64,000 nt of DNA from a virus (Duplodnaviria > Caudoviricetes). The position numbers and the translations under genes were made by a program. The notes below the pieces were generated by a model. The model did not search any database. It saw nothing but the letters and a program-made list of their open reading frames with translations, and was not told the DNA's origin. The DNA lies in IMG/VR virus record IMGVR_UViG_3300021387_000357, positions 18,768 through 82,767 of that record; one strand, given 5' to 3'. Below, in pieces: positions 8,544 through 63,908 of the stretch (the first letter of the stretch is position 1; each line of letters starts with the position of its first letter).

Positions 8544-9338
8544 ATGTTTTGTTTAAATTATTATCCATCTTAGAAATACTTTTAGAATATAGATGAATTA
8601 AAAATTAAGTATCGCCGCGCTGACCGTACTTTACCAGATTTTTTAGAAAAATATAAAGATAAGTCTATCGTTATTGATGTTTCAGATTCATTTGAGGATA
8701 TTGATGCAACACTTTTAAAAGGACTAAGTGAAAAATATAATAATATAAAAATTATTTTTGATTTTTATAATGAAGATTTTTTAACAAGAGCAAAAAATTA
8801 TAATATTCCATTCTTTTTTTTAAATCCAGTTACAACGATAGATCAATTACATGGATTTTTAAATCATCATCCTACTGATATGTATATTTGTTAGGAGTTG
8901 GGTTTTTCATTAGATAAAATTAGTAAAATATTACACGATCATAATATAAAAGTGCGGGTATATCCTAATATTTGTCAATCTAGTTTTTCAAAAACACCTA
9001 GTATAAAAACTTTTTTTATTAGACCAGAAGATATTTCAGTTTATTCTGCTTTTGTTGATGTATTTGAATTAATTGCAGATGAAAAAAGACAACAAGTATT
9101 ATTTAAAATTTATCAACAAGGTAAATGGTTTGGTAAAATAAAAGATTTAATTCCAACTTATAAAGGAGAATTGGATAGCAAATATATTCTTAGTTCTTTT
9201 GGTAAAATTAGATGTAAATGCGGCAAGCGGTGTATGTATAAACCTGAAAGCTGTTCTATATGCGACAGATTTTTAGAACTTGCTGACACTCTAAAAGAGA
9301 ATAATATTATAGTACGAAAAGAAAAGATTAATAATTGA
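8544..9338 (+). CDS. TAG-recoded protein with C-terminal Cys cluster
   Basis: ATG after AGGAG RBS; open through three in-frame TAG into ORF 8898-9338 (YIC*ELGF); ends TGA. Confidence 0.7.
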
Positions 9339-9575
9339 TTTTTTAAAATTTTTTTGATATAATATATATATAAGATAAAGAAAGAATATCGGTAGACAAG
9401 CATTAAAAGTCGTGAAGAGAATAAAGCTGGTTATACGTAAGAACGCAGAGGGGAGACACCTCATAGAGCAGGGGAAGTTCCGTAAGATACTCTAAAAACG
9501 AATCGTGCAATCTTACTCAGATGCGTGTGATTGAAACTGCACACCCGATATTTAAATAAAGGAAGAGGTAAAAAT

Positions 9576-9887
9576 ATGAGTGCAAAAGGTTCAATTTTAA
9601 AACAGGAGATTGCAAGTAAAATTCTGGCGACGTTTCCTGGAAGTTTTTTGTATAATGATGGTAAAGAAATCCGTATTAACGGGACTGAGAATGGAGAAAA
9701 GTTGCAAATTAAGGTAACTCTTACGGCGGCTAAGGTTGCTGTTGAAGGTGGAAGCGACATTACTCTACCTGGAGAGGCGGCAACTGTAGATGTAAAACCC
9801 GCAGGAATGAATGAAAAAATTCCTCAGGAACCGACCGCAGAAGAGAAAGAAAGACTTACCACTTTATTAAATAAATTAGGATTATAA
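9576..9887 (+). CDS. hypothetical protein
   Basis: GAGG RBS before MSAKGS; about 190-nt non-coding leader. Confidence 0.7.
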   Translation: MSAKGSILKQEIASKILATFPGSFLYNDGKEIRINGTENGEKLQIKVTLTAAKVAVEGGSDITLPGEAATVDVKPAGMNEKIPQEPTAEEKERLTTLLNKLGL

Positions 9888-10078
9888 AATTATGTTCAAT
9901 AGTGGAATAAATAAAGATATTCATTATAGAGTTATTTTATATGATGACCACGGAGAGGTAATTGAAGATACTACAATTATAGGCCAAGATAATGCTTATA
10001 ATTATGGAGAAAAAAGAGCTTTGGAATTAGGAAAAAGAAAAACCGATTTTACTGTAAAAGTTTGTTAAGGAGATAATT

Positions 10079-10378
10079 ATGGGAGCAGGAGTTCATCTTT
10101 ATCAAATGACTTGTTGGGAATCAGTAGGACATTGGTATGTAAATGATGTTAAAAATCTTAGTGGACGCTCTGCTAAATGGTATACTCCTATGCGAATCTT
10201 AGAAGTTTCTGTTGAGGAATATGTTGATCTTTTATTAAATACATTTCATGCAAAAGGATTAAGTTATTATGCTTCCACAGATTATTTAGCTTTTTATTTC
10301 TCAAAAGAAAAAGACGCTAAGGCATTTTGCTCATATATAAACAAGCAGGCACGGATTAAAAATTATTGTTGTGCATAA
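10079..10378 (+). CDS. hypothetical protein
   Basis: AAGGAG RBS. Confidence 0.7.
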   Translation: MGAGVHLYQMTCWESVGHWYVNDVKNLSGRSAKWYTPMRILEVSVEEYVDLLLNTFHAKGLSYYASTDYLAFYFSKEKDAKAFCSYINKQARIKNYCCA

Positions 10379-10387
10379 GGTGATATT

Positions 10388-11068
10388 ATGTACTCTATTG
10401 TTAATGAAAAATATTATAAGCTTTATGATGCAAAAGTTCATGAATTTATTGATTATTTTTATTCAAAAGATGAATTAATAAATTTTATTGCTAAATGGTA
10501 TCGTATTAGTGAATGGGTAGACAATTTCTTTAGGTATCATAAAAGTGTAAATAATTCTTTTATTGAACAGTGTACTTGTGATGTAAATGAATTATTCAAA
10601 AGCAGTTGGGATCAGTATTACAGATGTTATATTCTTTATGATAATTTTGATAGAATTATCAATGTTCACGATTTTGAATCGGATGCTTTAAAGTTATATC
10701 AAAATTGGAAAGCAAAAGATAAGATTAATACATATAGTTGGTCATTTTTTACATGGAGATTATGGAGACGTCGTTTAAAATCTCATAAATATGAGTTCTT
10801 GAGAAGGATGAATTCTAATTATAGATATAGAAAAGATCCAGTTCCTCATACACGAAAACGGCGCGGCGGTCCGAGCCATTCTTCTCCGCACACTGTAAAA
10901 CTTATAAAAATATATAAAAATCCTGAATATAAAACATTTAATCGCGGTTCTATTCATAATATTCCAACTTGGTGGGATGATAGAACTAGATGTGTTCAAC
11001 GCTCTTGGAAAGAGCAATCAAAAGCTAGACATCAATGGCAAAGAAAAAAATTAGGACAAGTTTTGTAA
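10388..11068 (+). CDS. hypothetical protein with basic C-terminus
   Basis: AAGGTG RBS; R/K-rich C-terminal half. Confidence 0.7.
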   Translation: MYSIVNEKYYKLYDAKVHEFIDYFYSKDELINFIAKWYRISEWVDNFFRYHKSVNNSFIEQCTCDVNELFKSSWDQYYRCYILYDNFDRIINVHDFESDALKLYQNWKAKDKINTYSWSFFTWRLWRRRLKSHKYEFLRRMNSNYRYRKDPVPHTRKRRGGPSHSSPHTVKLIKIYKNPEYKTFNRGSIHNIPTWWDDRTRCVQRSWKEQSKARHQWQRKKLGQVL

Positions 11069-12779: not shown

Positions 12780-12785
12780 ATTTTT

Positions 12786-12858
12786 GGCCCCGTCGACAAG
12801 CGGTCTAAGTCGTCGCCCTTTCACGGCGGAATCGTGGGTTCAAATCCCGCCGGGGTCA
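12786..12858 (+). tRNA. trnE: tRNA-Glu(TTC)
   Basis: GGCCCCG/CGGGGTC acceptor; loop CT-TTC-AC. Confidence 0.92.
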
Positions 12859-12990
12859 TTTAAATTATAATTCAATTTAATATATAATAAATAGTGGTGC
12901 CATGAGACGGGTATCTGGCTTAATTCTCCCCCGCAAGTACGCGCGAATGAAATTCTTGGAACATAGCCATTACTTATTATATAATATTTT

Positions 12991-13238: not shown

Positions 13239-13312
13239 GGCCCGGTAGTGGAGCGGTTTAACACAGCTGACTCTAAATCAGCGGAACCTGGGTTCGAACC
13301 CCAGTCGGGTCC
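13239..13312 (+). tRNA. amber suppressor tRNA, anticodon CTA
   Basis: GGCCCGG/TCGGGTC acceptor; GCTGA/TCAGC stem, loop CT-CTA-AA; T-arm CTGGG-TTCGAAC-CCCAG. Confidence 0.92.
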
Positions 13313-13545
13313 CCTCGATAAACATAATCTTTACGCAGATATGTATTATCAAAAAGTTTTTTACCTTTTGTTCTTTAAAAACGTAAAGGTGACTAAAGAA
13401 GTCAAAATGCACTTCTTCCCCTGCTTGGGGTGAAAAGTGGTTATTTAATGATTCCTGCCAGAAGACGAATCATTACCCTCCGATGCGTAAAAAGGATAGA
13501 GGGTGCGAATATCTATCTTGTATAGTGTATCGGAACTATACATTT

Positions 13546-14373: not shown

Positions 14374-14808
14374 ATGGCTGAAAAATATACATTAAGTGAA
14401 GTTTTTGTAAAAAATAGTCCTGTCACACAAAAAGTTTTACGAGGATATATTACTAGACACAGTGTAATTCCTTATAAATGTAAAATTTGTGGGTGTGATG
14501 GAAATTGGCAAAATGGACAAATTTCATTATAGTTGCATCATGAAGATGGTGATAATTCTAATAATGAAATTTCAAATCTTTGTTATTTATGTCCTAATTG
14601 TCATGCTCTAACAGATAATTACAGAGGAAGAAATAAAGATATTGATAGTCAAAAATAGCCAACTGTAATTTCATAGGAATAGTTTGTTAATGCTTTAAAA
14701 ATAAAACCAAATATTCGACAAGCATTAATATTCTTAGGACTTGCTCCAAAAGGAGCTAATTATACAAGAGCAAATAACTTAATTGAAAAATATGGCATCC
14801 AAAAATAA
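14374..14808 (+). CDS. intron-encoded HNH homing endonuclease (4 in-frame TAG)
   Basis: AAGGAG RBS; CKIC, L*LHHEDGDNSNNEISNLCYLCPNCH; ends TAA. Confidence 0.82.
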
Positions 14809-15128: not shown

Positions 15129-16601
15129 ATGAAAAATAAGTTTGTTTAGACAGGCCTCATTGCTTCTATGATTTCAACTATGATGCTTTCAACGGCGTTT
15201 GCCGCAAATCATTGGAGTGATGAGGACGGAACTTGGAAGTATTTTGACAAAAATAATACAGTAATTACTAATAGTTGGGCGAAGTCAGGTGAGAACTGGT
15301 ATTATGTAGACGATCAAGGTAATATGCTTATTGATACTCTATTTGAAGACGATGATAACTATTACTATTTTGATTCTACTGGTGCTATGGTTCGTAACAC
15401 ATGGATTAATTATGAAGATAATTGGTATTATTTTAAAGAAGATGGAAAGGCATATACGACTAAGAAAGATGAACTTACTTCATCAAATTTAAAGACTATT
15501 AATGGTCAAAAGTATGCTTTTGATTCTGAAGGAAAAATGCTTTATGGGTGGATTGATGCTTCTAGCTTGACATCTGTTGATGAAGATGATTCAGATGGAT
15601 GGAAATCCGCAATGTATTATGCTGGTGAAAAAGATGATGGAGCCATTAAAATTGGCTGGTATCAAATTGAAGTAGAAGATGATGATGAATTAAAGGATTA
15701 TTGGTTTTACTTTAAACCAACAGGGAAAAAGTCTTTAGATGAAAAAAAGACTATTAATGGTTCTACATATCGCTTTGATACAGAAGATGGTCATATGTTG
15801 AGTGAATGGGCGGCAACCGCATCTTCTTCAATTGCTTCATCTAGTAATATGACTTATATGAACCCAGATGGTATAATGATTAAGAAAAAGTGGTTTTGGG
15901 CTATTCCAGATGAAGATTATATCCAAGAAGATTATGATAATGATGAATATTCTTGGTGGTATGCTGATAATAGCGGTAAGATTGTAAAGAGTACAATTAA
16001 GAAAATTAATAATAAAAATTATGTTTTTGATGATATGGGACGTATGCTTTATGGTCTTGTAACTTTTGAAGACGATGAATATACCAATAAATCTGGTGAT
16101 ACAGAGTATATTGATATGTCTAGTGACCAAATTAAGGAATTAGATTTTGAAAAACTTTATTATTTTTCAACAGAAGAAGATGGTTCTCGTAAAAATGGTA
16201 CAGTAAAAATTGAACTTGCAGATGATACATACGAATTTTACTTTAAGAATAATGGCGAAGCTGAGAATGGCTATGTTTCTAAAATTAAGAAATTTGTAAA
16301 AAATGGTATTATTCTTGAAGCTAATGCAAGTGAAGGTAAGTTTGCAGGAATTGATGCTGACTACGATGGCGGCTATAAATTAAATAGTGGAACTATTTCC
16401 TATGGAAGCGATATTGCAGAGGGGCAGATCTTAGTTAGTACAAATGGATCAATCGCTAAAAATAAGAACAATGTTAATGATGGTAATGATATTTATATCT
16501 TTACTGATAAAAATGGGGTAGTCCTTTATGCTGGTGAAAAATTAAAGTCAAGAAAAGATGGTTCCATTGAAATTAAGGGAAAGACATACGAAATTGATTA
16601 A
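15129..16601 (+). CDS. secreted cell-wall-binding repeat protein (Lachnospiraceae-type aromatic repeats)
   Basis: AAGGAG RBS before ATG 15129; signal peptide with TAG at codon 7; WYYVDDQGNM, YYYFDSTGAM, WYYFKEDGKA repeats. Confidence 0.8.
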
Positions 16602-21673: not shown

Positions 21674-21747
21674 TGGGGTATCGCCAAGTGGCTAAAGGCG
21701 GCGGACTTTGACTCCGCAATACGTTGGTTCGAATCCAACTACCCCAG
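21674..21747 (+). tRNA. trnQ: tRNA-Gln(TTG)
   Basis: U1:A72, G73; loop CT-TTG-AC. Confidence 0.92.
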
Positions 21748-21895
21748 CTCAAGGTTATTAATGAAATTCTCAATAAAATCATAGATAAACCCAGTAGCAA
21801 TAGACTTTATGAGAAATCTCATTAACAATTGATCTTGATGTGAAAATCAAGTCACTAACATATGACCGTGACAGCCGGTAAAATGATTTTATCAA

Positions 21896-21968
21896 TGGGC
21901 TATCGCCAAATGGTAAGGCAATGGATTCTGATTCCGTTATTGTGAAGGTTCGAATCCTTCTAGCCCAG
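21896..21968 (+). tRNA. trnQ: tRNA-Gln(CTG)
   Basis: U1:A72, G73; loop TT-CTG-AT. Confidence 0.9.
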
Positions 21969-21971
21969 CTT

Positions 21972-24035: not shown

Positions 24036-24509
24036 ATGATATTGCTCTAGCATTATTCCTTATCTGATATTCTTATGTTTACTATTTTTTTAGCATTGTC
24101 AATTAAAAGTTTAATTTCTTTTTTTGATTGGGCTTATGTATATATAAAAAAAGCATTTAATATAAAATATTCTAAGATTACATAGAAATAGGAATTAGAA
24201 CGTCGTTTACAAAAAGGAAGCGAAGTCATGACAGAATTAAAACAAAATCAATAGGCAACGGATAAAATTTTAAAAGATTTATCTACAAAAATTGATATGT
24301 TAATTAATTCAGATCGAGATGACATAAAATCTTATATAACAAGATAGCATCATTATTTCTGTTATAAATTAGGATATATTGATGATTTTAGTCTTGATTG
24401 TATTGAAAAAAGATTTAAACATTATTCTGATGAAGGCGGCAATTCTTTTATAGAAAATTTTATGAAAGATTTAAGAGCTTTACCAATTCAATCGCCAAAA
24501 GAAGAATAA
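24036..24509 (+). CDS. TAG-recoded protein with N-terminal transmembrane segment
   Basis: GGAGG RBS; open through five TAG to TAA; first gene after late promoter 23952. Confidence 0.7.
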
Positions 24510-24542
24510 TAAGTTTTATAGAGAAAAAAGGAGATTAAGGAT

Positions 24543-27500
24543 ATGGCAATTACTTCAAATTTATATCCGCCTTTAATTAATGATACGTTGCCAAGTTTTA
24601 TAAGAACAAAAACTTGTAGAATTTATTTTTCTCTTTCTAATTATAATTCCGCAACGGATATAAAAAATGTTCAAATTTCTTTAATAAATCAAAGAACAAA
24701 CCAATCTGCTTTTGATACAATAAAATATCCTTCTGGAATAAAAATAGCATCAATGATATATGATTCTAATATTCAAAATGACTTTAATTATTATGTAGAA
24801 ATACCAGTTAAAGATTTAGCTGAAGGCGTTTTTGGTTTAAATCAATTTTATAAAGTTCAATTGCGTTTTACATCAAAATCAGCATCAGATCCTCCAAGTT
24901 TAGGAAAAGGATTGGCGACTTGGTTATATAATAATATGCAATATTTTTCAGAATGGTCAAAAGTTTGTTTAATTAAAGGTATTGAACAACCAATTATCAC
25001 TATTAGAGGTTTTGATAATACAGAAGCTAACCAAGAAACAATTTTAACAAATGCTATTATAGACATAATTGGATAGATGCATTATAAAAATGGAGTAGCA
25101 GAAAAAGAATATTTAAAACATTATAACATTAAAATATATCAAGATAATGATTTAAATACGGTTCTTTTTAATAGCGGAGAAATTTATACTAATTAGTACA
25201 ATCCTAATGAAATAAATTATGAATTAGGATATGATTTATCTGATGGAGTTAATTATATTCTATCTTTTACATATACAACAAATAACTTATATACAGAAAC
25301 AATTAATTATAATTTTGCTATTATACAAAGAGGCATTGATAAATTAAATGCAACCATTACTGCAACACCAGATGAAGAAAATGGTAGAATAAAAATTAAT
25401 ATTGTTTCAACTGATAGTGAAAGATTTATTGGAAATATAACAATTAGAAGAACTTCTTCTAAATCAGATTTTCATAAATGGGAAGATATAAAAACTATTA
25501 CTTATGTAACAGGACAATAGTTAAATTATTCTTGGTATGATATTACCATTGAAAGTGGGGTTTGGTATAAATATTGCGCTCAACGCCGCAATGCACGGGG
25601 CGATAGGGGAGTAATTATTCAGATTGAGAATCCTGTTATGTGTATATTAAATGATATATTTTTAACAAGGAATGATAAACAATTAAAAATAAAATTTAAT
25701 CCCTCTTTAAATGAGATAAAATATAATGTTACTGAATCTCAACAAGTAACTATTGGTTCTCAATATCCATATATAAAAAGAAATGGAAATAATTATTTTA
25801 GAACATTTCCTATTGGTGGGTTAATTAGTTCTTTTATTGATACAACAAATTGGTATGACCCACATTTTTATGATGGAGAGTTTCATAATAATGAGAATGA
25901 AATAGGAGCTTTTACTTCTAAAAATGATATTTATGGAGAATCATAGAGTTTATATAATAATTATAATAATAAAAATAATATAACTTAGTATAATGATTAT
26001 ATTTATGAAAGAGAATTTAGAAAAAAAGTTTATGATTTTTTATATAAACATGATGTAAAACTTTTCCGCTCCACAACAGAAGGAAATATTTTAATTAAAC
26101 TAATGAATATAGATTTTCAACCTGTTGAATCTTTGGGACGAATGTTATATTCTTTTACTGCAACCGCAGTTGAAGTAGATGCAGCTACTATATAGAATTA
26201 TCAAAAATATGGAATTCAAAATGTTGGAACTTATGAAGATTATATTACATATGAACATGAAATATTAGGGCAAATTCAAGGCACTTATAATGAAAATAGT
26301 GGAAATATCTTAACCAGTATTATTAACTCAAAATATAGTAATCAAGCAAATAAAGGATTTTTAAATCAGGTAAATAACTTAAAATGGTTAAAATTAGAAA
26401 TTAGTTCAGATCCATATCTAATTATTGAAGAAAATGGATCACTTATTCAAGCAGATAAAAATTCTAATATAAACATTAATAATGCAACAGTTGGATATAT
26501 TGTAGAAATTAATGGTGTATAGATGATTATTCATCCGAAAATTATTAGAAGGACAGAAAATGCGGTTGATGGAACTGGACCTATTACAACTTCATATATA
26601 GGTTATTTTGAGTTAAAAGAGTCAAATACAAAAATTACATCTTTAAAATTTAAGTATCCGACAACGGTTTCTATTGATTATATTGCTAATCTTAAAGAAA
26701 TTGAAGATACTTCTCAATTAGCTAGTAGAATTTACTATTTACAAAAACCTGGTCAGATATATGGAAATTTTGAACCTAAAGACTCTATTTTCCGTAAAAT
26801 TTATAATAAATATCTATTAAATTATAAAAAATATTATCAGAGATTGATAAGTATAACTTAGATACAAGTAGAAGGCTAGCCGGGAACAGTCGTTTATGTA
26901 AAAGATTCTAAAGACACAGAAGCTTCACGTCATATCTTACAAAATGGATATTTACAATTAAAATAGGATGAAGTTTTTATTGAAGGAATTTATTTTTGCG
27001 GCAAGCATCTTACTCAATGTACTGATCCGCTATAGATTTCAACAGTAAATGGAATTCAAGATTTTATATTACAAGAAGGAATATATGATAATTTAAATGA
27101 CATTAGTAATCCTATTAATGGTGGAATATATCAAATAAAAACTTATGGCATATCTTCTTCTGTTTTAAAAATGCAAAATCAAAAAATATTATTAGTTCCA
27201 GAAAATTTAACAGAAAAAATTGAAATTACACCAGACAATTTTTATACATTATTACTTGAAACAATAGATGATGATAATATATTAAAATTTGTATATTATT
27301 ATGGTTGCTGGTATGTTTTAAATTAGGCTTTAAAGAAAAAAGTTGAATTATTAAAAAATGATATTCGACATATTAGAGATGATGAATATATTTAGACAAA
27401 TGAACGATATGATGATTTTTCTGAAATAAAAAATCCTATTAATAATGGAGTATATTGGATTTCTGATTATGCAGTAATGCACTCTATTTCTTTTGATAGA

Positions 27501-27713
27501 AATACGGGATTATTAACAATAGAAAAAGAAGACGCTATATTAAAAACAGACCAAAATTTTGCTTTAATTGTTCAAAAATTATATGAAGCATCAAAAAATA
27601 GATATATCTACTATCATAATAATTGGTATTTATTTACGCCAGACAATGATGTATTATGTCCAATAGATGGAATAGTTAATTATTGTTGTGAAATCGTGAA
27701 AGGAGTGTATTAA
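24543..27713 (+). CDS. large TAG-recoded putative tail/baseplate protein (about 1056 aa)
   Basis: Track ORFs 24543, 25638, 26523, 27477 share one frame and are separated only by TAG; ends TAA. Confidence 0.75.
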
Positions 27714-27715
27714 TT

Positions 27716-29749: not shown

Positions 29750-29772
29750 GAGTTAAAAGGAGAGCAATAAAT

Positions 29773-30471
29773 ATGTATCAAATTGGACAATTTAGAAAAT
29801 CTCAAATGGATTCTTATTCGACTCCTTTACAAATGACAATGGGATAGCAAGAAACAACCATTTCTTCTGAAGGAGATGTTATTTTTTATAATATATGTGG
29901 GAATTTAATAGGCGATAATGTCGTTAATAGTCAAAATTCTTATTATTTACGTTTTGGAGTTAGACAAAGAACCGATTCTGAACAAAGATTTTATTTAAAA
30001 TTAAGAAATATTACTGAAATAGAAGATAATGAACAGTTGTTAGAAGAATTTGTTGTTCCTAGCGGAGTTTCTATAATATATTTTGAAATAGTATTTACGC
30101 CTAATTCTACTTACAATCAAATACTTTGGGAATTACAAAGAACTATTTTAGATTATCAAATGTTAAATACAAATAATAATCATTATGGTAGAGTAATGAA
30201 TGTTGAAATACAAAGCTTTACTAGATTAATAGATGTTATGACCACATTAAAAAATCTTTATCCTAATATGAATTATTTAAGTAAAATCGGGATTCAAGGC
30301 CCACCATCTATGTTAATGTGTATAAATGGAGAACAGATAAGAATAGGAAAAAGCGGTATTTACGAAATTAATAATGGAATAATTAAAATTATTTCTATTA
30401 GTTTTGTTCCTAAATAGTCAACTCTTTCTTCAAATCAAACAGATTATTTTATTATGGATTTTGAATATTAA
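29773..30471 (+). CDS. TAG-recoded putative tail protein
   Basis: RBS, same frame as ORF 30037; ends TAA. Confidence 0.72.
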
Positions 30472-30488
30472 TTAGAGGAGGATTAAGA

Positions 30489-46500: not shown

Positions 46501-47728
46501 TAATATTTATTATTTTACTAACAACTGTACCATCATATAAAATAGAAACTTTAAAACGATTATCTCTAGCTGTTGCTTCAGAAATTTTAACAGTATAAGT
46601 ATCTTTACCTGGTACCCAAGTATAAATCGGGTCATTTTCTGCATCTCCCTCGACCGCAAGATTACTATCATTTAAACATTTCCACCCTCTACCAAGATAT
46701 TTATTATAATATTGATTTCTTGGTGTAATTCCAACATTTTCACTTCCCCAATAGAAAGAGATGTTTTGGGCGGCAGATGCTAATTTACCCTTTATTCTAA
46801 CTTGCGCAGTTATTGTTTTATAACTATTCTCACTTGATTGGTCTGTAAAAAAAGTCCCTTGAGGTGTATAAAATGATATTGCTACACCATTTATCTCATC
46901 TTCTGCCATCCTAATCGCACCATTTAACTATAAGGCAGAAATTTCTATATCACCGCTTGATAATCTTGTTCCAGTGGTTATTTGAGTTGCTCCTGGAAAA
47001 TCTTGATTGAAAATCTAAATTGATTCAACTCTAATAAAATTAGCTCCATCAATATCAAAAATCTAATACTGTCTGGTATCATATATTAATCTATATGGAT
47101 TATCAATCATGTTATCTTCATCTATAGTATATGATCTAATTACTTCTTTATTAGATGTATTATCTAAAAAACGAAGATTAAATGTAATTCCATAATGCCC
47201 TCTATATTGCTTTTCTGGAGCAATATTTGTTTTAAATATTCCTCCTACAATTAAAGAAGAAGATTGTTTAATATATTCATTTAATGCAGTATTATCTAAT
47301 TTAATATCACTAGTTTTATTATATTGATATATTACATATTTATAGTCTTTATTTTTAGTATCTAAATAAAAAATATTATTAAAAGTTATACAATTGTTAC
47401 CAATAGTATCATATGCTTCATCTCCTTCAGCCTGTGAAATATAATTAATTCCTAATTTTTTTGTAGTTCCAAGAATTGTTTTTTCTTTTCCCATATCCCC
47501 GCCAGGTACCAAAATATAAACAAATGCTCCTTTAGTATATGTTATATCCGCAGTACCAGCATATGCATATATTGTTGCATCTTGATAACGACATCTATAC
47601 TTACCTATTGTCGCATCCTAACATGATAAAATTTGAGCTTGAATTGTTCTATCATATCCAGCTTTTTCAACTGTGCTTTTAGATAACAATTCAATAGCAT
47701 CTAAAACTTTCTAACTCACATTACTCAT
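43580..47728 (-). CDS. large TAG-recoded tail protein with Cys-rich C-terminal peptide (about 1382 aa)
   Basis: Frame joins ORFs 47063, 46475, 44801, 44453; GGWTI/AGWKI fibre-type repeats; ends TAA. Confidence 0.72.
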
Positions 47729-48077: not shown

Positions 48078-51000
48078 TTATCTACGCATTGCTCTTTGCG
48101 CTGCTAAATTAACTAAATCATTAAATGCCTATTCAATTTCTCGTTTGCTATTAACACTCGGGAAAGAAGCATCAATACGAACATTTTGTTCCAAATTCTG
48201 TCCACCGCCAAATGCATTATACAATCCTGATTTTATATCACTTACTTTTGTAAAGATATTCCCGCCAACAGAATCCATTACAGAACGTAAAATACTTACT
48301 GTACTTAAAAGATTTGATGTATCTGTAGCATTTAAAACTAATTCTTTTTTATGAAGAATTGCGGGTATTCCTTCATTTCCGCTCCAGTTTCCAGTATACC
48401 CGCCAGTGTCATAATGTCCATACTTCTTTTTATAATCTTCTTTTAAAGCCTATCTAACACTTTCTGCAGAGTCAGCACTTAAGCCTGTAGTCATCTTTTC
48501 AAAACTATCTGCGTCAACTCTAACAACAGAATAGCTACCATCAGACTATTGAAGAGTATTCCATGAACCTGTAGAATATGTTTTACTTAAAGTTGGCATC
48601 CTATCTTGTAACGGAGTATCTTTTGTATACCATCCTTTTGGGGCAGTTTCTGGCATTACACCAGGTCCGATATCGTTCTAAATCTATCCATCATCAAGAT
48701 AGTCATCTTCAAAATCATCAATTTCACCTCTAGTATCTTGAAGAGTTTCATGAATTGCGGATGCTGCTCGCTTAGCTGCTTCATAAACGTCATTATACTA
48801 TTCTTTTAAATTCTTAGCTGCTGTTTGTAAACTCTCAATAGCGGTTAACTCTTTATCCATTCTTTCTATTAAATCATCGTTTTTTTCAACTAAATCGGCG
48901 AATGAATCAGCTAAATCATCGACGCCCTGCTTAACATCATCAAGATCAATACCAGCAACTTGTGCCATCTCATCAAGTTCATCTTTATAATCTTCAGTAG
49001 CTTCTGTAATATTTTCAAAAGCTTCTTGACAAGTTGGAATAAAGCCACCCTATCCGGCAACTTTATCTGACATTTTCTGAATACCACTCTACCACGCGGG
49101 AACTAGATCTCCCATTAAGATATTCTTTTCATCATCTGCCATCTGTTGATAATTTTCAACATCTGTTCCATATATAGCCGCAATATCCATAAAAGCAGAA
49201 TTCATTAAGTTAGTTCTAATAACCATATTTTCTGCTATTTTATCATTAATATATTGACCATACTGCTCCCTTAATAAAGCAAGATTAGCTACTCTTTCTT
49301 CTTCTGATAAAGAAACATCTGTAACAATTTCTTTATATTGTTCTTGGAAATCCTTCCAAGCACTTAACATATCACCTAGATTAGATTGATATCTATCTTT
49401 ATCGAAATTATAAAGATCATTTTGTGCACTTGCAAGGTTTTGTTCAGCTTCGGCTATATTACCCTCATCCGCAACATATTCATATGAATAGTTACCTTGA
49501 GAATCTCTTCTTAACCTCATTGATGTTTTACTAGCTTGAGCATCTTCTAAAGCTATTCTTGCTTGTTCAATTTGTAATAATTTTTCAGCTCTTTCGACAT
49601 CATATTGAGTTAATTTATCTTTAGCTCTTAAATTTTGAAGTTGCTAATCCATGACTTTTTTCAAAGCACGCTGACTCTTTAAACTTTGAGTATCATTAAT
49701 AGCATTTTTAAATTTATTTTCTAACTATTGAACCGCAAAAGCTGAATTAATAGTATCTAAATACTCTTCAGCATTTTTATTCATTAAATCCCATTCAGTT
49801 GATAAATAATCAGTTCCTAATCCACCGCTAACTTTCTTATCTAATTCATCAAAAATCTTTTCAATAGCATTAAGATATTTATCTTTAAGAGTTTCAGCAG
49901 ATTTTTCAATGGTAGAATTTAAATTATTAAGAGTTTCTTTATAATTTTCTTCAAATTTCTTTGCAGATTCAGTATCTCCGCGAGCAACCGCCTCATCCCA
50001 TTCTTGTTTCCAGAAATCTCTTTGTTGTCTTAATGAATCAAGCTGTCTTAAATTATTATTTTGCAATGTCGTATAATATTTATTCATTGCATCATAATTT
50101 CTATCTCCATAGAGTAAAGACAAAAGATCTATATCATGTTCAATCAATTCACCAATTAATCCATAGTCTTCAATTTGCTTATCAAACTGATCCATAATAT
50201 CATCAATAGTGCTAAAGTAAGCTTCATCAATACTATCAATTAAATCTTCAACATCTTCCATTTGTTGCATTAATTCATCAAGATCACTCTGAAGATCCTA
50301 CATAGCTTGTTTTTTGTTGTTGCCATATATAGATGATTCTCCGCCACTATTAATTTCATCTAACTCATCTTGAGTTGCAAGTAATTGATTGGTTAAGGCT
50401 TCTAAGGTTCCCATTTGACCATTAATGTCAAAATAAGAAAGAACATCTTGATAATTTTGCGCGGCGTCCTTTAATAATTTATCAAATTCAGACTCTTTTA
50501 AAAGGTTAGAATGATTGAGGACATTTCTGCGGAAGTTATTCCAATCTTTTTCTGCTTTGCCCATATCAAGACGAATTTCAATATCAGTTCTAAATTTTTT
50601 AATATTATTTTCAAATTGCTATTGTCTTTTTGCTTCTCTCTAATCTTCATTATCCTACATTTCATCCATGAGTTTATCATAATTATCCATGCTCTTATGA
50701 AGATTTTTCATTTTTTCCTATTCATGTTTAATTTTTTTATCTAACTCAGAAAGTTGTTGATTTAGCTCTTTCTTACGAGTTTCATCTGTAGTCTAATTAT
50801 ATTCTTTAATTAATTCATTATATTGTTTAATTAATTCATTAATTTCAGTCTACTTTATTTTAAGTAAATCCATATAATTAGCAATTTTACCATATTCATC
50901 AAAAACAACACCTAAATTTTTTAACTATTCTTGTTGTTGTGTTTGGTCTTGTTTTTGTAGCTAATATTTTTCTTCTAATTTTCCAATTTGTTTATCAAGA

Positions 51001-54000
51001 ATTCCATTTTGCTAATTAAGATTATTAATTAAATCTTTACCATATAGTTTATCTTGTTTCTTTTTAGTATTTTCTAATTGTCTATTTAAATCACCAAGTT
51101 CAATATTAATATCATGATAAAGGTCTATCTATTCTTTTAATTCTTCTTTAGTCTATTTTTGAGAGGTATCTGGTTTAGATTCTTTTCCACCTCCACCTCC
51201 TCCGCCACTTTTCCCACCGCCAGGAGAAATAATCCCTCCATTATCATTGGTAGAATTTATTGGTTTATATGAAATTTTTTTAGGAATTCTTATTGTTCCA
51301 CCTTGAAAATTTAAGGCGCTATTTCCAGCTTCTGCTAAAGCATTTATCCTTCCAGTTCCAGACATTGCATTAATGCCTGCGGGTGCTTTTGTTGCTTGAA
51401 GACCTGTAATAGAAACTTCTTGCCATTCAATCTAAGACTCAACACCAATTGCACCTAAAATTTTATTACATTGTTTTTGTGTTAATCCAGCATCTCTTAT
51501 TAATTTATTTAACTGAGCAACAAATTTAGCATCTTGTAAATAAGCGTGCGTTTGTATATCTTCTGGAGATAATTGTTGAATTAAATTATTTAATTTATTT
51601 AAAACATCAACATTAATACTTTGTTCATTTAATTCTGCTTCAACTTGCACTTTTTCAATTTCTTGTTCAGCAAGTTTTTTTCTTAACCGCTAAACCGCTC
51701 CCTAAGTTCCCTAAGCGATTTCTTTAACATTTTCTAAATAATCAGTTGCATTTTCATCAGTTAAATCTATATGAATACCTGGAATATTGTTTATAATACC
51801 AATAAGTTCAGACATTGCATTCATAAATTTAAGAGATCCAGGATCAGCATTTAAATCATCTTTTAAATTTTTATAACTTTTTTGTAATTTCTATAAAGAA
51901 TCTATTAATTTTAAATCATTTAAAGCCATCTGTTGAAGAGCTTCATCAGATAAATTGAATTCCTATCCTAATTCATTTACTCCATCTACTGCACTATTAG
52001 TTTTTTCGCGAATTTTTTCTAATTGTTTTACATAATTTTGATATGTTGCACCAGAAACCTTTAAGGTTTTTAATTCTTCTCTAATAGCTTTATCTAATAA
52101 AGCATGATAGTGAACTTGATCTTGTATAGCTCCAGTTTTATAAAGTTCATTAACTCGTTCAACTGTTGTAGCATATTTTTCAATATCAGCAATCTATTCT
52201 TCAGTAAAAGCTCTATTTTCTTTTTTAGCTTGTTCAGTCTTTAATTCAATAGTTTTCTACAGAACCTTATCTAATGCTTGTTGATATTCTTCAGAGCCAG
52301 CTAGCCAAGTATCTTGTAATAGTTTTGCGGATTCTATTAATTCTTTATCATTATTTTGTGTAGCAGATTCAATTACCGCATTTAAATTTTCTTGATAAGC
52401 CTAATTTTCTTTTTTAGATAAATTTTTACCAGATTGAAGTTTTTCACCACTTTGAGAAATAACAGATAAAGAAGCAATATTATTTTGTTGCTATTGAATT
52501 ACTTGTTGGTCGGCAATTACTTTTTGAAGCACTTTCTACCAATTATCTGTAGTTAAAGTAACTCCTTCAAGACCTTTTTGAATATTCTACCAACTTACTC
52601 CCTGAGTATCAATAGCAAGAAGATCATCTAACAAACCTTCTTGTGGTTTACCTATTTTTAATTCAATATCTTTTCTAACCTCATCAATTGAATCTATAAA
52701 AGGATCACTAATACTTCTTACTAATCCATCTGTATTAAAATTCTGTCCGTCTAAATTTAAACCAAAATAATAATTAAATAATTGTGATAAAGTATCTTGA
52801 CTAACATTTTGTAAATTACTGTTTTTAATTATTGCATTTAAAGATTCTGCTAAATAATTAGCTCTCTATTGTCCAGTTTCAAAAGCAATATCTTTGAATT
52901 TTTCATTTTCTGTTTTTAATTGAGAAAATAATTCTGGAGAAGTTTTATAAATTGTTAATAACTATGCTTCAAAATCTTTTCCTTGAGATAGATAGGTAGA
53001 ATATTGTTCTGCCATCCCCTATTTATGTCCCTATGCCCAAGCCGCAATTAATCCTTCTGCGTCTGTTATTCCAGCTTGTTTTAACTTTTCATAATTAGAA
53101 CTATCTCCACTTCCATACATTAATTGTTGAAGCAACATCGTGGGATCTGCATTTGAAGCCTAACTAGCAGTCTACTGCGCAGCAACTAATCTTCCTTTTG
53201 CTATCTACCACGTACTTATATAAGTATCAATTGATTCTAATAAATTTTCTTTATAATTATTAGCTAATGTGTTTAAAGTTGTATCTCGACTACGAGCAAA
53301 AATATTTAAAATTTCTTCATATCTTTGTCTTTCATCTTCAGATAAATCTTTAATAGTTTTGCTACTTAGTTCTCTAAATTCATTAGCATAGTATGTCATT
53401 GCAGTATTATTTCTTTGAATGGCAGCTTGAATAATAGAATTAGTTATATCTGGATTTAAATCAGCAATTGAAGAATTAAAATTAGTATTAATATTTTCTT
53501 GTTGTATATCAACTAATTCTCTTGCATTTACAGATTGTACTCTTCTACCTTCAACAGCATTAGTAAAATCATTACTATTAACAAAACCTTTTAATTCTAA
53601 TTCATTCTTTTTCTATAATTTTGCTATTGTTTCATCAAGAGCATTATTATTTGCTAAAATTGCTTCGCCTTGAGCATTATATGCAGCAACAATTTCTGGA
53701 TTAACACCAGCTATTTTATCTTTAATCTAATTCCATCTGTCTTTTTCTTTATCTGAAAGATTATTTATGTTTTGATCATATTGTCCTGCAGCATTAGATA
53801 AAGAATTATACTCATCTCTTAAAGATTCTAAATCTTGAATAGTATTTTTTGTAGATGAAACATTATTTGCTAATTCAGCTTGTTTATCATTAAAAGTAGA
53901 TAAAGCTTGCTCAGCCTATTTAGCTGACATAGTAAGCTTATCGTATGCTGCAACCAATCCAATTACAGCGGCAGCTACTAATATGTATGGATTAAGTAAT

Positions 54001-56732
54001 AAAGTTTTATTTAATAATTGAATTTTTATTGCTGCTTCTCCAGAAGCCACTTTTACTAATGAAATAGCTCCAGCGTGTGCAATTTCAGTTGTTGTTGCTG
54101 CCATAGCTGCAACATATTCTTCTGTTGTTACAACTTTCATTAAACCTAATGATGTAGTGGCTTTTACAAACCCATTTGCAAGCATTGGAAGAACAAAAGC
54201 CGCTCCAGTAATTATTTTAATAAATTTCTATCCAGCAGATAAATCAGAGTTTTTCCAAATACTACCAAGATTTTGCACCTGTTGAATGGCAGAACCCATT
54301 TGAGCAATACCGCCAGCCGCTTTAGCCCAATTTTCAATTTGAGCAGCTCTTTCTATTCTTTCTTGTCCAGTAATAAAAGAAACAGTAAGCTGTTCTAATT
54401 TTTGTTGCTTCTATTGTAAGTTATTTATAAAAGCTGGATCACTCATTACCTACAACAAATCTTTATATCTTTTATTAATTTTATCTCCAGCAGCTTTTGT
54501 GGCATCAACTAATTTTTGAAGGAAAGATTTAAATATTTGTTCAGCAACTTCTGGTTTTTCAGAATTAATTTTTTGTATTACTTTTGTCCATTCTGTGCCT
54601 AAAGATTTAACTTTATTTTGAATTTCTGGCATTCCATCAAAATAACCACCGCTTTCAAATTCTGTAAGTTTATCTATAAAAACTTGAACTTCATCAGTGG
54701 CTTGATTAAATGCTTCTTCAAAATTTTGAGTAGCATCTTTTCCATTTTTCATTACTGAAAAGGCTTTATTTAAATTGGCTTCAAGCTATTTACCAACATT
54801 TTTAGATTGTTCTGCTATTTCTTTTAATCCAGTAATTTCTTCATCTATAATTTCTTGAACTTGATCTGCCTAATTTGAACCTAAAAATTCATTTAATGGT
54901 GTTGTTACAGCAAAATCAGTATTAAGTAAATCTTCTAATGGTTTCTTTTTTTCTTCTAAACTAGCAATTTCATTACCTAATTGAGTAATATCATTAAGTA
55001 ATTTTTGCATACCAGAAAATTGTTCTGGTGTCATTAATCTTGCTAATTCAAGTAATTGTTCTCTATTTTCTAATAATTTTTTACTGGTATCATCTAACTT
55101 AGGAATTCCTTGCCAGTCTTTTGTTGCTTCAAGAGCTTGCCTGAATTGTTCAGCATTATCTCGACCAATTTCAAAATTAGTAATAGTAGTATTAATTCCT
55201 CTAGCAATTTGCTCACTAAATACAGTCAAGCCAACAGCACCAAGCATTTTTAGTACTCCAACTCCGCCACCAAGACTATCAACCAAATTAGCAGTTAAAT
55301 TTGCGGCAACTGTTAATCCATCAGCTATACTATTAATACTATCAGTGTCAGATAGACTGTCATATATATTTTCAACAGCTGCTTTTAAAGTTTGTAAGTG
55401 TGCGGCGGTTGACTCCATATAAATATCTTGTTGCTCTTGTAAAGTACCTGCCGCATTTTGAGCAGTATTTAATGCTTCATTATATTTCTCAAAATTATCA
55501 AATAAAGCAATCAAATTAGAATACTGTCTTTGACCAGCCATTGTTTGTGCAAGAGAAATCTGTTGCTCTCTAGTCAAATCTTGCCAACGACCGCCAATTT
55601 CTTCCATAACTTCACCCATATCACGAAGATTACCAGCAGCATCAAGAACATTAAATCCTAATTCTGCCATTTTACCAGAATAATTACCAAGAGTAACACC
55701 ATCTTCATCAATACCAGCTTTAATATCAGAAATACGAGCATATACGGTTCTTAATGCAGTACCAACTGATTCAGGAGCTTGACGAGTAACAGATATAATA
55801 GTTGATAATTGTGCAGCTAATTGATCTTCACCAACTCCCATCGCGGCAGCCGCACTTGCAACCTTACTCATACCAGTACTTAGTTCCTCAAGGTCTGATG
55901 CTGTAGTAGCAGCAACCGCAGCAAGCCTATCAATATAAAGCTATGCTTCTTCCGCACTAACTTTATAACCATTCCAAACAGCTGTTAATTCCTCTGAAAC
56001 ATCTGAAGTAGATTGCCCAGTAACGTTGGCTGTCATTAGAGTAATTTTAGCTCTTTCCTATATTTCTTTATCAGATAAACCCTGTTGTGCATAAATTAAT
56101 GCCGCATTTGTATAGTCTGTTGTAGTTTTACCTAAACTTTGGGCAGCTTCATTTGCTTTAATCGCAAAATTACCCATTTCTTCAGCAGACTTACCTGTAA
56201 CTATTCTAATGTTATTTAATGATGTATCTAATGATTTTGTATAACCCCATGCTTGTTCAACCGCCCTAGACATATTATTAACTGCACCAGAAGCTAAATT
56301 CCATTTAATAGTATTGGTAAGAGTGGTTGCCATCTTATCTAATAAGCCATGAGTCTCTTTTAATTGAATATTTGTGCTTAATACTTGAGAAGATAAACTT
56401 CTAAATGCATTTTCTCCACTAGTCCCCGCAGATTTAAAAGCTGTATAAATTTTCTATATAGATGTTTGAGAATTAATTAAAGATTTATTAAAAGTCTATA
56501 TATTTACAGTATTTAATTTAGCATTAAAAGCAGTCTTTAAAGCTTCTTCTACATTCTGAGCTTCTCTTTTTATACTATTAAGCATCGTTGTAGCAGATGC
56601 TGCATCAGTATGATTAATCTTCATTACATCACTAATTTTCATTTTCTGAATTTCTTGTAATGAAGCTTTTAATTTATTTAAATCGCCAGATTTTACATCA
56701 AAACCAACCTGGTATCTTATTTCATTTGCCAT
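48078..56732 (-). CDS. tail tape measure protein (TAG-recoded, about 2884 aa)
   Basis: Eleven track ORFs from 56496 to 49089 share one frame; TMP-like core (ALIYAQQG, APESVGTALRTVYARI, AGQRQYSNLIALFDN); ends TAA at 48078; not every codon was checked. Confidence 0.85.
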
Positions 56733-61546: not shown

Positions 61547-62091
61547 TGATTTATTTCTCATCAGATCTCCATCTAAACCATAATAAACCTTTTATTTATG
61601 AACCCCGCGGTTTTAAAAATATTTATGAAATGAATAATACTATTATTAAAAATTTTAATTCAATAATCACATGGGAAGATGATCTTTATCTTCTTGGTGA
61701 TAATTTCCTTGGAGAACTTGAATCAGGAATTAGTCTTTTTAATCAACTTCCTGGTAAAATTCACTTGATTTGGGGGAATCATGATACAGACAATAGAAAA
61801 GAGATTGTATCCAAATGCTATAATGTAGTAGAAACTGTTGGATATGCAGGAATAATTAAATATAATAAATATCACTTTTATATAAGTCATTTTCCAACTT
61901 GCACAACTAATTTTGATGATTATAAAAAGCCCTTAAAACAACGAACTCTTTGTCTCAGTGGTCATACTCATTCTAAAGAACTTTTTGAACCTTGTGGATC
62001 TTATAATGTAGCCGTTGATGCTCATAACTGTTTTCCAGTTTCTATTGATGAAATTATCAATGATTTTAATAATTGGGACAAAATTAAATAA
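61546..62091 (+). CDS. calcineurin-like metallophosphoesterase
   Basis: SDLHLNH, LLGD, GNHD, HFP, GHTH. Confidence 0.88.
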   Translation: MIYFSSDLHLNHNKPFIYEPRGFKNIYEMNNTIIKNFNSIITWEDDLYLLGDNFLGELESGISLFNQLPGKIHLIWGNHDTDNRKEIVSKCYNVVETVGYAGIIKYNKYHFYISHFPTCTTNFDDYKKPLKQRTLCLSGHTHSKELFEPCGSYNVAVDAHNCFPVSIDEIINDFNNWDKIK

Positions 62092-62113
62092 TTATTAAAT
62101 TATATTTTTAATA
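62076..62113 (+). promoter_or_regulatory. putative late promoter
   Basis: GGACAA-24 nt-TTTTAATA upstream of the holin-endolysin. Confidence 0.7.
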
Positions 62114-62198
62114 ATATATACAGAACAAAAATCTTATGTTTTTCAAGGAACTAGTATTTAACTAGTTCCTTATTTTTATATTTTAAGGAGGTAGTTAA

Positions 62199-62471
62199 AT
62201 GAATTTTAAAGTAAGATTTAAAAATCCTGTTTTTATTGTTCAAATAATTCTTGCAGTTTTTACTCCTATTTTAGCATATGCTGGATTAACATTTCAGGAT
62301 TTAACTTCTTGGGCAATATTAGGAAAAGTTCTTATAGAGGCTTTACAAAATCCTTATGTTTTAGGATTAATTGTTGTTTCTGTTTGGAATGCGATTAATG
62401 ACCCAACCACAGAAGGTGTAACAGATAGTAAGCAAGCAATGACATATGATAAACCAAAGCCAAAAGAATAA
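62199..62471 (+). CDS. holin (phi LC3-like)
   Basis: MNFKVRFKNPVF, two TM segments, DPTTEGVTDS. Confidence 0.85.
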   Translation: MNFKVRFKNPVFIVQIILAVFTPILAYAGLTFQDLTSWAILGKVLIEALQNPYVLGLIVVSVWNAINDPTTEGVTDSKQAMTYDKPKPKE

Positions 62472-62483
62472 TGGAGGTTTATT

Positions 62484-63908
62484 ATGTTAAAAGGAATTGA
62501 TATTTCTTATCATCAAGGGACAGTAGATTTTAAAAAAATAAAAGCCAGTAATGAAATGGATTTTATTGTTCTTAGATAGGGCTATAGAAAAGCTATTGAT
62601 AATAACTTTATTGAATATACAAAAGAATGCCAAAATAATAATATTCCTATTATGGTATATCATTTTATTTATACCAATAATGCTACAATTAAAGAAAATG
62701 CAGAATCAACTTTTAATAATATAAAAAAAGCTGGTTTAAACCCTGAAGAAATTTGGATTGCGGCGGATCTTGAATATGACACTTGGAAGAAAAATAAAGA
62801 AATTTGTACCAAAGAAAAATGTACTGCATATACAAAAGAATATTTAGATGAATTAAAAGCACTTGGATGTAAAAAATTATTTATTTATACCAATACTGAC
62901 TATTATAAAAATTATTATGATTGGAATCAATTATCTGATTATCCAATTTGGCTTGCTGACTATGCTGGAGCTCCTGATTATCCATGCGCCATGCAACAAT
63001 ACACTTCAACAGGTAGGATTAGCGGCATTAATGGCTATGTAGATATGAATTATTTATTTGATGAAACAATGTTAGATAATAACTTAAAAGAATAGACAAA
63101 TAGCCATGACAATAATAATGTGATTACCGCAGATGATGCATTAAATCTTTTTAGAACATGGATAGGACTATCTCGTTCTAAAGGAACTCATAAAATAATT
63201 ATTGATACTTATAATAATTATACTCCAAGAGCAAGAGGATATAAGGTTACATATTCTGACGCCTATTGTGATACAACAATTAGTGCAATTTTTATTAAAT
63301 TAAATGCAGTTGATTTAATAGGTGGGACAGAGTGCGGCGTAGAAAATCATGTTGCATTATTTAAAAAAGCTGGTATTTGGGAAGAAGATGGAACAATAAC
63401 ACCAGAAAAAGGTGATTTAATTATATATAACTGGGATGATAATACTCAACCAAATAATGGTTATTCAGACCATATAGGAATGGTTGAATCAGTTTCTGAT
63501 AATAATATTATTGTTCTTGAAGGTAATATGAATGGTGGAGTTGTTGGTCGTAGAACTATTCCTATTGGTTGGGGTTATATTCGTGGATATGCTAAACCCA
63601 AATATGGAATTAAAAAAGAGAAAAAAGAAACATCTACAATTGGGAATATTTCAACAACAGTCAAAGAACCTAAAACCAATACCACAATAAAAATTGATTA
63701 TGCCGAATCTTTTAATAAAAAAATTGCAAAAACTTATACAACGACAGCAAATTTAAGATTGCGGTCAGGCGCCAATTTATCAAAACCAATTATTACAGTT
63801 ATGCCATATGGTAGTAAAGTTACTTGTTATGGATATTATACTGAAAATTGGTATTATGTTACATATGGAAAATACACTGGATTTTGTTCTAAACAATATT
63901 TAAAATAA
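62484..63908 (+). CDS. modular endolysin GH25 muramidase + CHAP + SH3b (2 in-frame TAG)
   Basis: GIDISYHQG, DLEY, WLADY; AYCDTTIS and DHIGMV (CHAP Cys/His); NLRLRSG SH3; TAG at 62577 and 63093. Confidence 0.85.

What the first reader, a model, noticed from the sequence alone, without database searches (positions are those of the whole stretch)
8544..63908. TAG appears to be recoded to glutamate, not glutamine
Seen: late, lysis and nuclease genes are interrupted only by TAG and end in TAA/TGA. The TAG positions fall where Glu is expected: RuvC-like I*KIIM**VRP (41683-41703, where the RNase H fold needs its second catalytic Glu and no other acidic residue is offered); PD-(D/E)XK YDLIA*FNGKLNKIQVK (20641); YIC*ELGF (8544 gene); HFGG*QLGK (27716 gene); QILSC*DATIGKY (47728 gene); REIE*AFNDLVN at the tape measure C-terminus; acidic C**DCDE*C. 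Established: amber-recoded phages described so far (crAss-like, Lak) use TAG=Gln (code 15); UAR=Glu is known from some eukaryote nuclear codes. Inference: this would be a different phage genetic code. My homolog consensus is from memory, and some sites fit Q or E equally.
Basis: partly seen in the sequence, partly recalled or inferred. Interest (0 to 1): 0.95.

Follow-up and report, generated by a model that had tools for sequence, protein, structure and literature searches.

The report
Phage reads TAG codon as glutamate
This large, probably rumen-dwelling phage uses the stop codon TAG about 160 times inside its genes, and comparison with relatives shows that it stands for glutamate, not the glutamine assumed for such phages in the papers I could search; the phage's own glutamate-type suppressor tRNA probably reads it.

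Summary
Confirmed. Reading TAG as sense raises coding coverage from 63% to 86%; 19 window genes hold 158 in-frame TAGs and end in TAA/TGA. Codon-level alignment to standard-code relatives puts Glu opposite TAG (E 39%, Q 5%; GAA gives E 50%, Q 6%; CAA gives Q 47%). At columns at least 70% conserved, TAG faces E 20 times and Q once. The same test calls Gln for two sister phages. The RuvC catalytic Glu is GAA, GAG or TAG in relatives, never CAA/CAG. The Gln seen there in protein databases came from automatic TAG=Q translation in all three entries checked. A tRNA-CUA (13239-13314) has a tRNA-Glu acceptor stem and D arm and lacks the Gln acceptor determinants. No synthetase or release factor was found in 28 related records, so host GluRS probably charges it (inferred). 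This phage family holds four codes: standard, TGA=Trp, TAG=Gln, TAG=Glu. I found no paper reporting phage TAG=Glu. This scan has noted it before on other DNA (21 notes, at least 11 genomes). Peptide proof is missing.

The parts
13239..13314 (+). Amber suppressor tRNA, anticodon CUA; acceptor stem and D arm of tRNA-Glu type (G1-C72, G2.U71, C3-G70, U11-A24, C73), anticodon arm most like tRNA-Lys(CUU); no encoded CCA
   Evidence: (Rfam tRNA 57.7 bits); the same tRNA in G001 and G002
12785..12859 (+). Phage tRNA-Glu(UUC), comparator: same first five acceptor pairs as the suppressor
21674..21969 (+). Two phage tRNA-Gln genes (UUG, CUG), comparators: U1-A72, G2-C71, G3-C70, G73
8544..9338 (+). Conserved gene of unknown function, 3 TAG; aa 117 is Glu in 11 of 13 relatives
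14374..14808 (+). HNH endonuclease, 4 TAG; aa 53 is GAA in 4 homologs
15129..16601 (+). Choline-binding-repeat protein, 1 TAG, shared with the homolog in L184
20524..20946 (+). PD-(D/E)XK endonuclease (PF11645), 2 TAG
24036..32666 (+). Six putative late/virion genes (24036, 24543, 27716, 29773, 30489, 32346), 51 TAG in all, all ending in TAA; 27716 matches a PHROG tail family and, weakly, DUF5048
32847..40813 (-). Reverse-strand late block; the genes starting at 35255, 38153, 38526 and 40813 carry 3, 5, 1 and 1 TAG
41515..42003 (+). RuvC-like Holliday junction resolvase, 6 TAG
   Evidence: (phrog_827, phrog_159)
41698..41703 (+). TAG TAG at RuvC aa 62-63; aa 62 is the putative second catalytic carboxylate
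   Evidence: relatives have GAA/GAG or TAG at aa 62, never CAA/CAG; Gln-reading relatives keep GAA
42148..43563 (-). Radical SAM protein, 8 TAG; no homolog among the fetched relatives
43580..47728 (-). 1382-aa putative tail protein, 18 TAG, Cys-rich acidic C-terminus
48078..56732 (-). Tape measure protein, 2884 aa, 53 TAG
62484..63908 (+). Endolysin (GH25, CHAP, SH3), 2 TAG

Best explanation
The window is part of a tailed phage whose complete relatives are 130-145 kb and whose host is probably a rumen Bacillota species. It uses a code in which TAG means Glu while TAA and TGA remain stops. Shown by comparison: TAG sits at Glu positions. Inferred mechanism: the phage expresses its own tRNA-CUA, whose acceptor stem and D arm are those of bacterial tRNA-Glu. 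The host glutamyl-tRNA synthetase, probably a non-discriminating one that already tolerates different bases at anticodon position 36, charges it with Glu. Because the tRNA has G1-C72 rather than U1-A72, and lacks G73 and G3-C70, neither the GatCAB amidotransferase nor GlnRS turns it into Gln-tRNA. It competes with host RF1 at UAG. TAG-free genes (most of the early and RNA-repair genes) can be made before the tRNA accumulates, while virion, resolvase and lysis genes need it, as proposed for code-15 phages. TAG can arise from GAG in one step, whereas GAA would give the stop TAA. Confidence is about 0.93 for the codon meaning and about 0.75-0.8 for this charging route.
For: (1) Residues in five standard-code relatives opposite window TAG: E 0.39, D 0.12, K 0.10, Q 0.05 (n=275), like GAA (E 0.50, D 0.12, Q 0.06) and unlike CAA (Q 0.47, E 0.09). 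E has the best likelihood in all 12 informative single-genome comparisons, ahead of Q by 22-73 log units. (2) Method control: the same test gives Q for G020 and G021 (Q 0.45, 0.43) and E for five sister genomes. (3) Columns invariant in at least 4 standard-code genomes: window TAG at 15 E columns and 1 Q column. Under the strict criterion 8 E and 0 Q; six E-type genomes together 102 E, 2 Q, 1 D; two Q-type genomes 56 Q, 3 E. (4) Window sites at least 70% conserved: 20 E, 1 Q, 1 D, 1 T; differs from CAA/CAG sites (Fisher p 3e-20) and not from GAA/GAG sites (p 0.16). (5) Budget on 21,224 aligned pairs: E 5.49% + TAG 1.62% = 7.11% against 6.94% in relatives; Q alone 4.13% against 4.19%. (6) RuvC aa 62. 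(7) tRNA: six of seven acceptor pairs and 24 of the first 27 bases equal a Bacillota tRNA-Glu, against 12-13 of 27 for tRNA-Gln; identity elements as listed in PMC9976931. (8) A CUA tRNA was found in 12 E-type records and in none of the four standard-code genomes with tRNA sets scanned whole. (9) No GluRS/GlnRS or release factor in 28 records, no PylRS in 5.
Against: All evidence is comparative; no peptide or charging assay exists. A CUA anticodon lacks two strong Glu determinants, modified U34 and C36 (PMC9976931), and the tRNA keeps a 5-nt variable loop, so how well GluRS charges it is unknown. By whole-sequence identity the tRNA is as close to Asp (0.74) as to Glu (0.73); Gln 0.61. For several sister tRNAs the nearest class is not Glu, and the classifier recovers only 10 of 19 true tRNA-Glu. 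The closest relative has Gln opposite 17% of non-shared TAG sites against 2% for GAA, and RuvC aa 127 alternates TAG with CAA/AAA in the E clade. In E. coli extract 28 of 29 phage CUA tRNAs inserted Gln (10.1101/2025.10.30.685624). The host is not identified.
Confidence: 0.9

Rival explanations
1. TAG is decoded as a mixture, mostly Glu with a real minority of Gln (or Lys), because the suppressor tRNA is charged by more than one synthetase or is partly amidated.
For: Gln excess against the closest relative (12 of 70 sites; best two-state mixture 78% E); mixture fits give 90-92% E against other groups; RuvC aa 127 and tape measure aa 1961 look like Gln sites; K is 0.10 opposite TAG against 0.04 opposite GAA; the anticodon arm is most like tRNA-Lys(CUU).
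Against: At invariant Gln columns TAG is no more frequent relative to GAA/GAG (1:7) than at invariant Glu columns (15:69). Most sites where G001 has Gln are variable columns in other relatives. CAG and AAG are one mutation from TAG, which can explain the excess without mixed decoding (inference). Catalytic RuvC Glu is TAG-encoded in several genomes.
Confidence: 0.15
2. Ordinary code 15: TAG means Gln, and the Glu signal reflects tolerated E-to-Q substitution.
For: All phage TAG reassignments described in the papers read are to Gln (10.1101/2021.08.26.457843, PMC9523058, PMC10607447); sister phages in this family read Gln; public protein records show Gln at these sites.
Against: TAG avoids invariant Gln columns and fills invariant Glu columns; it would put Gln at the RuvC catalytic carboxylate, where no relative has CAA/CAG; Gln content would overshoot (5.75% against 4.19%) and Glu fall short; database Gln came from automatic translation in 4 of 4 entries checked; the tRNA lacks U1-A72, G2-C71, G3-C70 and G73.
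Confidence: 0.04
3. TAG encodes another residue (Asp, Lys or pyrrolysine), or the TAGs are true stops in a decayed or mis-assembled genome.
For: ARAGORN labels the tRNA 'Pyl' (by anticodon only); D and K are the second and third residues opposite TAG; the 20641 site and RuvC aa 57 are Asp columns.
Against: D and K trail E by 158 and 177 log units pooled; no PylRS found; TAG positions are shared by independent assemblies and by relatives at about 82% identity, with frames otherwise intact.
Confidence: 0.02

Closest known systems
TAG-recoded 'code 15' gut phages (crAss-like, Lak, Agate, Garnet, phAss-1; Borges et al. 10.1101/2021.08.26.457843; Peters et al. PMC9523058; Babkin et al. PMC10607447)
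   Same: In-frame TAG concentrated in virion and lysis genes, TAA/TGA stops, a phage tRNA-CUA, no phage synthetase, low GC; code varies among close relatives. phAss-1 holds a 32% identical homolog of the 27716 gene.
   Different: The residue is Glu, not Gln. [quoted passage not shown] The tRNA has a Glu-type, not Gln-type, acceptor stem.
Ciliate Oligohymenophorea sp. PL0344 nuclear code (UAG=Glu, UAA=Lys; PMC10553269)
   Same: UAG read as Glu, uncoupled from UAA, with tRNA-CUA genes most similar to tRNA-Glu.
   Different: Eukaryotic nuclear genome; UAA is also reassigned there. Here TAA is the main stop, and the code runs inside a bacterial host that presumably uses the standard code.
Peritrich nuclear code (NCBI table 30, UAA and UAG = Glu; table content from my own knowledge, Peritrich reassignment in PMC10553269)
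   Same: UAG = Glu.
   Different: UAA also Glu there; here TAA ends most genes.
Phage suppressor tRNA library of 10.1101/2025.10.30.685624 (tRNACUA-21 and -33, from cattle phages)
   Same: By eye these two are near-copies of the CUA tRNAs of the Glu-reading relatives G014/G009 and G012.
   Different: They were tested only in E. coli extract, where they were weak (11,442 and 16,999 units against 60,000-70,000 for strong ones). The text read does not give the residue they insert and reports no Glu insertion.

Membership tests
Code-15 (TAG=Gln) recoded phages | In-frame TAG restores long genes and coding density | tested here: met
   63% to 86% coverage; 158 TAG in 19 genes
Code-15 (TAG=Gln) recoded phages | TAG enriched in late structural and lysis genes | tested here: met
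   148 TAG in 10,677 codons of the 24-57 kb block against 23 in 8,079 elsewhere
Code-15 (TAG=Gln) recoded phages | Phage-encoded tRNA with CUA anticodon | tested here: met
   13239-13314
Code-15 (TAG=Gln) recoded phages | TAG aligns with or is translated as Gln | tested here: not met
   E 20 against Q 1 at conserved columns; 15 against 1 at invariant columns
NCBI table 30 (UAR=Glu) | TAA is also read as Glu | tested here: not met
   TAA is the commonest stop, 52 of 67 counted genes
Pyrrolysine decoding | PylRS gene | tested here: not met
   No TIGR02367 match in this record and four near-complete relatives; host genome not testable
Bacterial tRNA-Glu identity set (PMC9976931) | G1-C72 and U11-A24 | tested here: met
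   pair 2-71 is G.U as in the Bacillota tRNA-Glu genes fetched, not the E. coli U2-A71
Bacterial tRNA-Glu identity set (PMC9976931) | Anticodon U34 (modified), U35, C36, A37 | tested here: not met
   C34-U35-A36-A37: only U35 and A37 present
Bacterial tRNA-Glu identity set (PMC9976931) | Absence of nucleotide 47 | tested here: inconclusive
   5-nt variable loop, but the Bacillota tRNA-Glu in L205/L208 also has 5 nt
Bacterial tRNA-Glu identity set (PMC9976931) | Charged with Glu by GluRS | not testable with these tools
   needs an aminoacylation assay
Bacterial tRNA-Gln identity set (PMC9976931) | U1-A72, G2-C71, G3-C70, G73 | tested here: not met
   G1-C72, G2.U71, C3-G70, C73; both phage tRNA-Gln genes have the full set

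The most novel reading that the evidence does not exclude
A clade of rumen phages uses a genetic code that, to my knowledge, has no NCBI table (TAG=Glu; TAA and TGA stop). [quoted passage not shown] The tRNA would be a natural Glu-inserting amber suppressor charged despite lacking U34 and C36.
Probability: 0.8. Interest if true: 0.87.

Novelty: new variant of a known kind. Interest (0 to 1): 0.8.

Why it matters
It overturns the working assumption that amber recoding in phages always means Gln. Annotation pipelines already write Gln into these proteins, including at a nuclease's catalytic Glu, so databases, metaproteomic search spaces and synthesised genes are wrong for this clade; Glu and Gln differ by about 1 Da and could be mistaken for deamidation. 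A family with four codes among relatives gives a natural experiment on how codon meanings are captured, and makes a testable prediction about how GluRS and GatCAB read tRNA identity. The tRNA may also be a useful suppressor, since its near-copies work only weakly in E. coli extract.

Tried and rejected
Tallying public protein homologs gave a misleading E/Q mix (E 1416, Q 546) because many records are auto-translated with TAG=Q; replaced by codon-level alignment. The first genome-wide tally included off-frame ORFs and was redone on filtered genes. Nearest-neighbour classing of CUA tRNAs by overall identity was weak. PDB sequence search for the RuvC-like protein found no true relative; the catalytic assignment rests on PHROG hits, invariant D7/E62/D140/D143 and my knowledge of RuvC. 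No GluRS/GlnRS, release factor or PylRS found; no recognisable translation factor among genes confined to Glu-reading genomes (read by eye). A second origin of TAG=Glu (L032/L036) is suggested by the tree, but one origin is not rejected (AU p 0.29). Literature searches for phage TAG=Glu found nothing; subscription papers, among them Ivanova et al. 2014, were not searchable.
Full report
Setting. The window is bases 18768-82767 of an 82.8-kb virus record, about 62% complete, with 31% GC and 21 tRNA genes. It encodes a tape measure protein, a RuvC-like resolvase, HNH and PD-(D/E)XK nucleases and a GH25-CHAP-SH3 lysin. Complete relatives are 130-145 kb. The record name of a 99% identical assembly (L063) points, from my own knowledge, to a sheep rumen study, and near-copies of sister tRNAs come from cattle samples. 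Choline-binding repeats suggest a Bacillota host; this is inference.

Observation. Reading TAG through raises coverage by long frames from 63% to 86% and fills the 24-56 kb block almost completely; reading TGA through gives only 70%. Nineteen genes hold 158 in-frame TAGs. TAG is concentrated in the late block (148 in 10,677 codons against 23 in 8,079), and genes end in TAA or TGA; only one or two short genes could end at TAG. The TAGs are real: L063 shares all 48 aligned sites and G001 shares 52.

A trap. Protein homologs from the large database show both E and Q at TAG columns, but the database translated recoded relatives with TAG=Q. The same holds for three RuvC records with Gln at the catalytic position. 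I therefore compared codons in DNA.

Meaning of TAG. In 62 related viral loci, Glu was the commonest non-TAG residue opposite window TAG in nearly all. Genome-wide against five standard-code relatives the profile opposite TAG (E 0.39, D 0.12, K 0.10, Q 0.05) matches GAA and GAG and not CAA or CAG, and E has the highest likelihood in all 12 informative single-genome comparisons. The same procedure gives E for five sister genomes and Q for G020 and G021, so it tells the two codes apart. At columns invariant among standard-code genomes, window TAG falls on 15 Glu and 1 Gln column; under the strict criterion six E-type genomes give 102 E, 2 Q, 1 D, and the two Q-type genomes 56 Q, 3 E. Site by site, 20 of 23 well-conserved TAG columns are Glu. 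Adding TAG to Glu balances the Glu content against relatives (7.11% against 6.94%), while Gln already balances without it (4.13% against 4.19%). At RuvC residue 62, which lies in the D7/E62/D140/D143 pattern expected of the active site (assignment from my knowledge of RuvC), relatives have GAA, GAG or TAG and never CAA/CAG; Gln-reading relatives keep GAA.

Is it mixed? The closest relative has Gln opposite 17% of non-shared TAG sites, and RuvC residue 127 alternates TAG with CAA and AAA. But TAG is not enriched at invariant Gln columns (TAG:GAR 1:7, against 15:69 at Glu columns), and CAG and AAG are single mutations from TAG. Minor mis-insertion cannot be excluded by comparison; a major Gln share can.

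Decoder. A tRNA with anticodon CUA lies at 13239-13314. Its acceptor pairs are G1-C72, G2.U71, C3-G70, with C73 and U11-A24. Six of seven acceptor pairs and 24 of the first 27 bases equal a Bacillota tRNA-Glu, against 12-13 of 27 for tRNA-Gln; both phage tRNA-Gln genes have U1-A72, G2-C71, G3-C70 and G73. Its anticodon arm best matches bacterial tRNA-Lys(CUU), so it is not simply a tRNA-Glu with one changed base. By the review PMC9976931, G1-C72 and U11-A24 are Glu determinants, and amidotransferases need U1-A72. The same review lists U34 and C36 as strong Glu determinants, and a CUA anticodon lacks them; non-discriminating GluRS, present in most Firmicutes surveyed in PMC3927822, accepts both C36 and G36, but acceptance of A36 is untested. 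CUA tRNAs occur in 12 E-type records and in none of the four standard-code genomes with tRNA sets scanned whole; the Q-type G020 and G021 carry differently built, long-variable-arm CUA tRNAs. No GluRS/GlnRS or release factor was found in 28 records, nor PylRS in five, so charging by a host enzyme and competition with host RF1 are inferred. In a published screen in E. coli extract, near-copies of two sister tRNAs suppressed weakly, and 28 of 29 tested phage CUA tRNAs inserted Gln (10.1101/2025.10.30.685624). E. coli has GlnRS, so this may not carry over to the natural host, but it is a caution.

Evolution. On a tree of the 27716 protein the window sits in a well-supported clade of Glu-readers (20 rows, SH-aLRT 99). 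A second Glu pair lies apart, though one origin is not rejected (AU p 0.29). Gln-readers fall in at least three places, eight loci read TGA as Trp, and standard-code phages are interspersed. Glu- and Gln-readers share almost no TAG positions, which argues for separate accumulation rather than a recent Gln-to-Glu switch. This is a one-gene tree without a root.

Comparison with what is known. It works like code-15 phage recoding (late-gene bias, phage tRNA-CUA, no synthetase) but fails that group's defining feature, TAG=Gln. Borges et al. report only TAG to Gln and TGA to Trp in phages whose code differs from the host's; Peters et al. confirmed Gln by proteomics in two crAss-like phages; phAss-1, a distant relative, was assigned Gln. 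UAG=Glu is known from ciliate nuclear codes, where UAA is also reassigned. Seven searches of the open literature found no phage with TAG=Glu; closed journals were not covered. This scan has already recorded TAG=Glu on other DNA (21 notes, at least 11 genomes). Those notes are unchecked and are not used as evidence; the result above rests on tests run here.

Verdict. Observation confirmed, interpretation supported. New variant of a known kind: a phage code with TAG=Glu and TAA/TGA as stops. Interest 0.8; direct peptide evidence and a charging assay are the missing steps.

Noticed in passing
window 12990-13064: tRNA-like gene with an 8-nt anticodon loop (read by ARAGORN as ATCA), also present in relative L070; function unknown.
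   Followed up: partly
window 58639-62091: RNA ligase (PF09414), AAA_33 kinase and metallophosphoesterase genes, all free of TAG: looks like a tRNA repair set.
   Followed up: partly
window 19965-20078 and 22291-23778: Weak YrlA (Y-RNA-like) match below the Rfam gathering score, upstream of a DUF2828/DUF7788 gene that looks Ro60-like.
   Followed up: partly
window 42148-43720: Radical SAM gene (8 TAG, no homolog among fetched relatives) directly after a tail-like protein that ends in a Cys-rich acidic peptide.
   Followed up: partly
L145 (G021 29464-29562) and L152 (G020 36480-36570): Gln-reading relatives carry CUA tRNAs with a long variable arm and without a typical tRNA-Gln acceptor stem; how they come to carry Gln is unexplained.
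   Followed up: no
L030, L033, L034, L035, L038, L041, L042, L054: Relatives in the same family read TGA as Trp.
   Followed up: partly
L057, L058, L061, L062: Distant TAG-recoded relatives whose TAG meaning was not resolved (neither E nor Q dominant; S, K, N, I seen).
   Followed up: no
L003, L005, L009, L016: Members nested inside the Glu-reading clade with very few TAG codons (1-5 in 1,400-3,000 aligned codons), though G008 (L009) keeps a CUA tRNA: early or reverting recoding.
   Followed up: no
window 20092-20361: Small ORF in the tRNA cluster that by eye resembles the S4-like C-terminus of tyrosyl-tRNA synthetase; no Pfam hit.
   Followed up: partly
L184: A TAG-recoded phage-like contig of this group sits inside a GTDB Bacillales MAG; probably mis-binned.
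   Followed up: partly
supplement of 10.1101/2025.10.30.685624, tRNACUA-18: The CUA tRNA from the Agate clade representative of Borges et al. has a tRNA-Glu-like D arm by eye; that genome may also read TAG as Glu.
   Followed up: no
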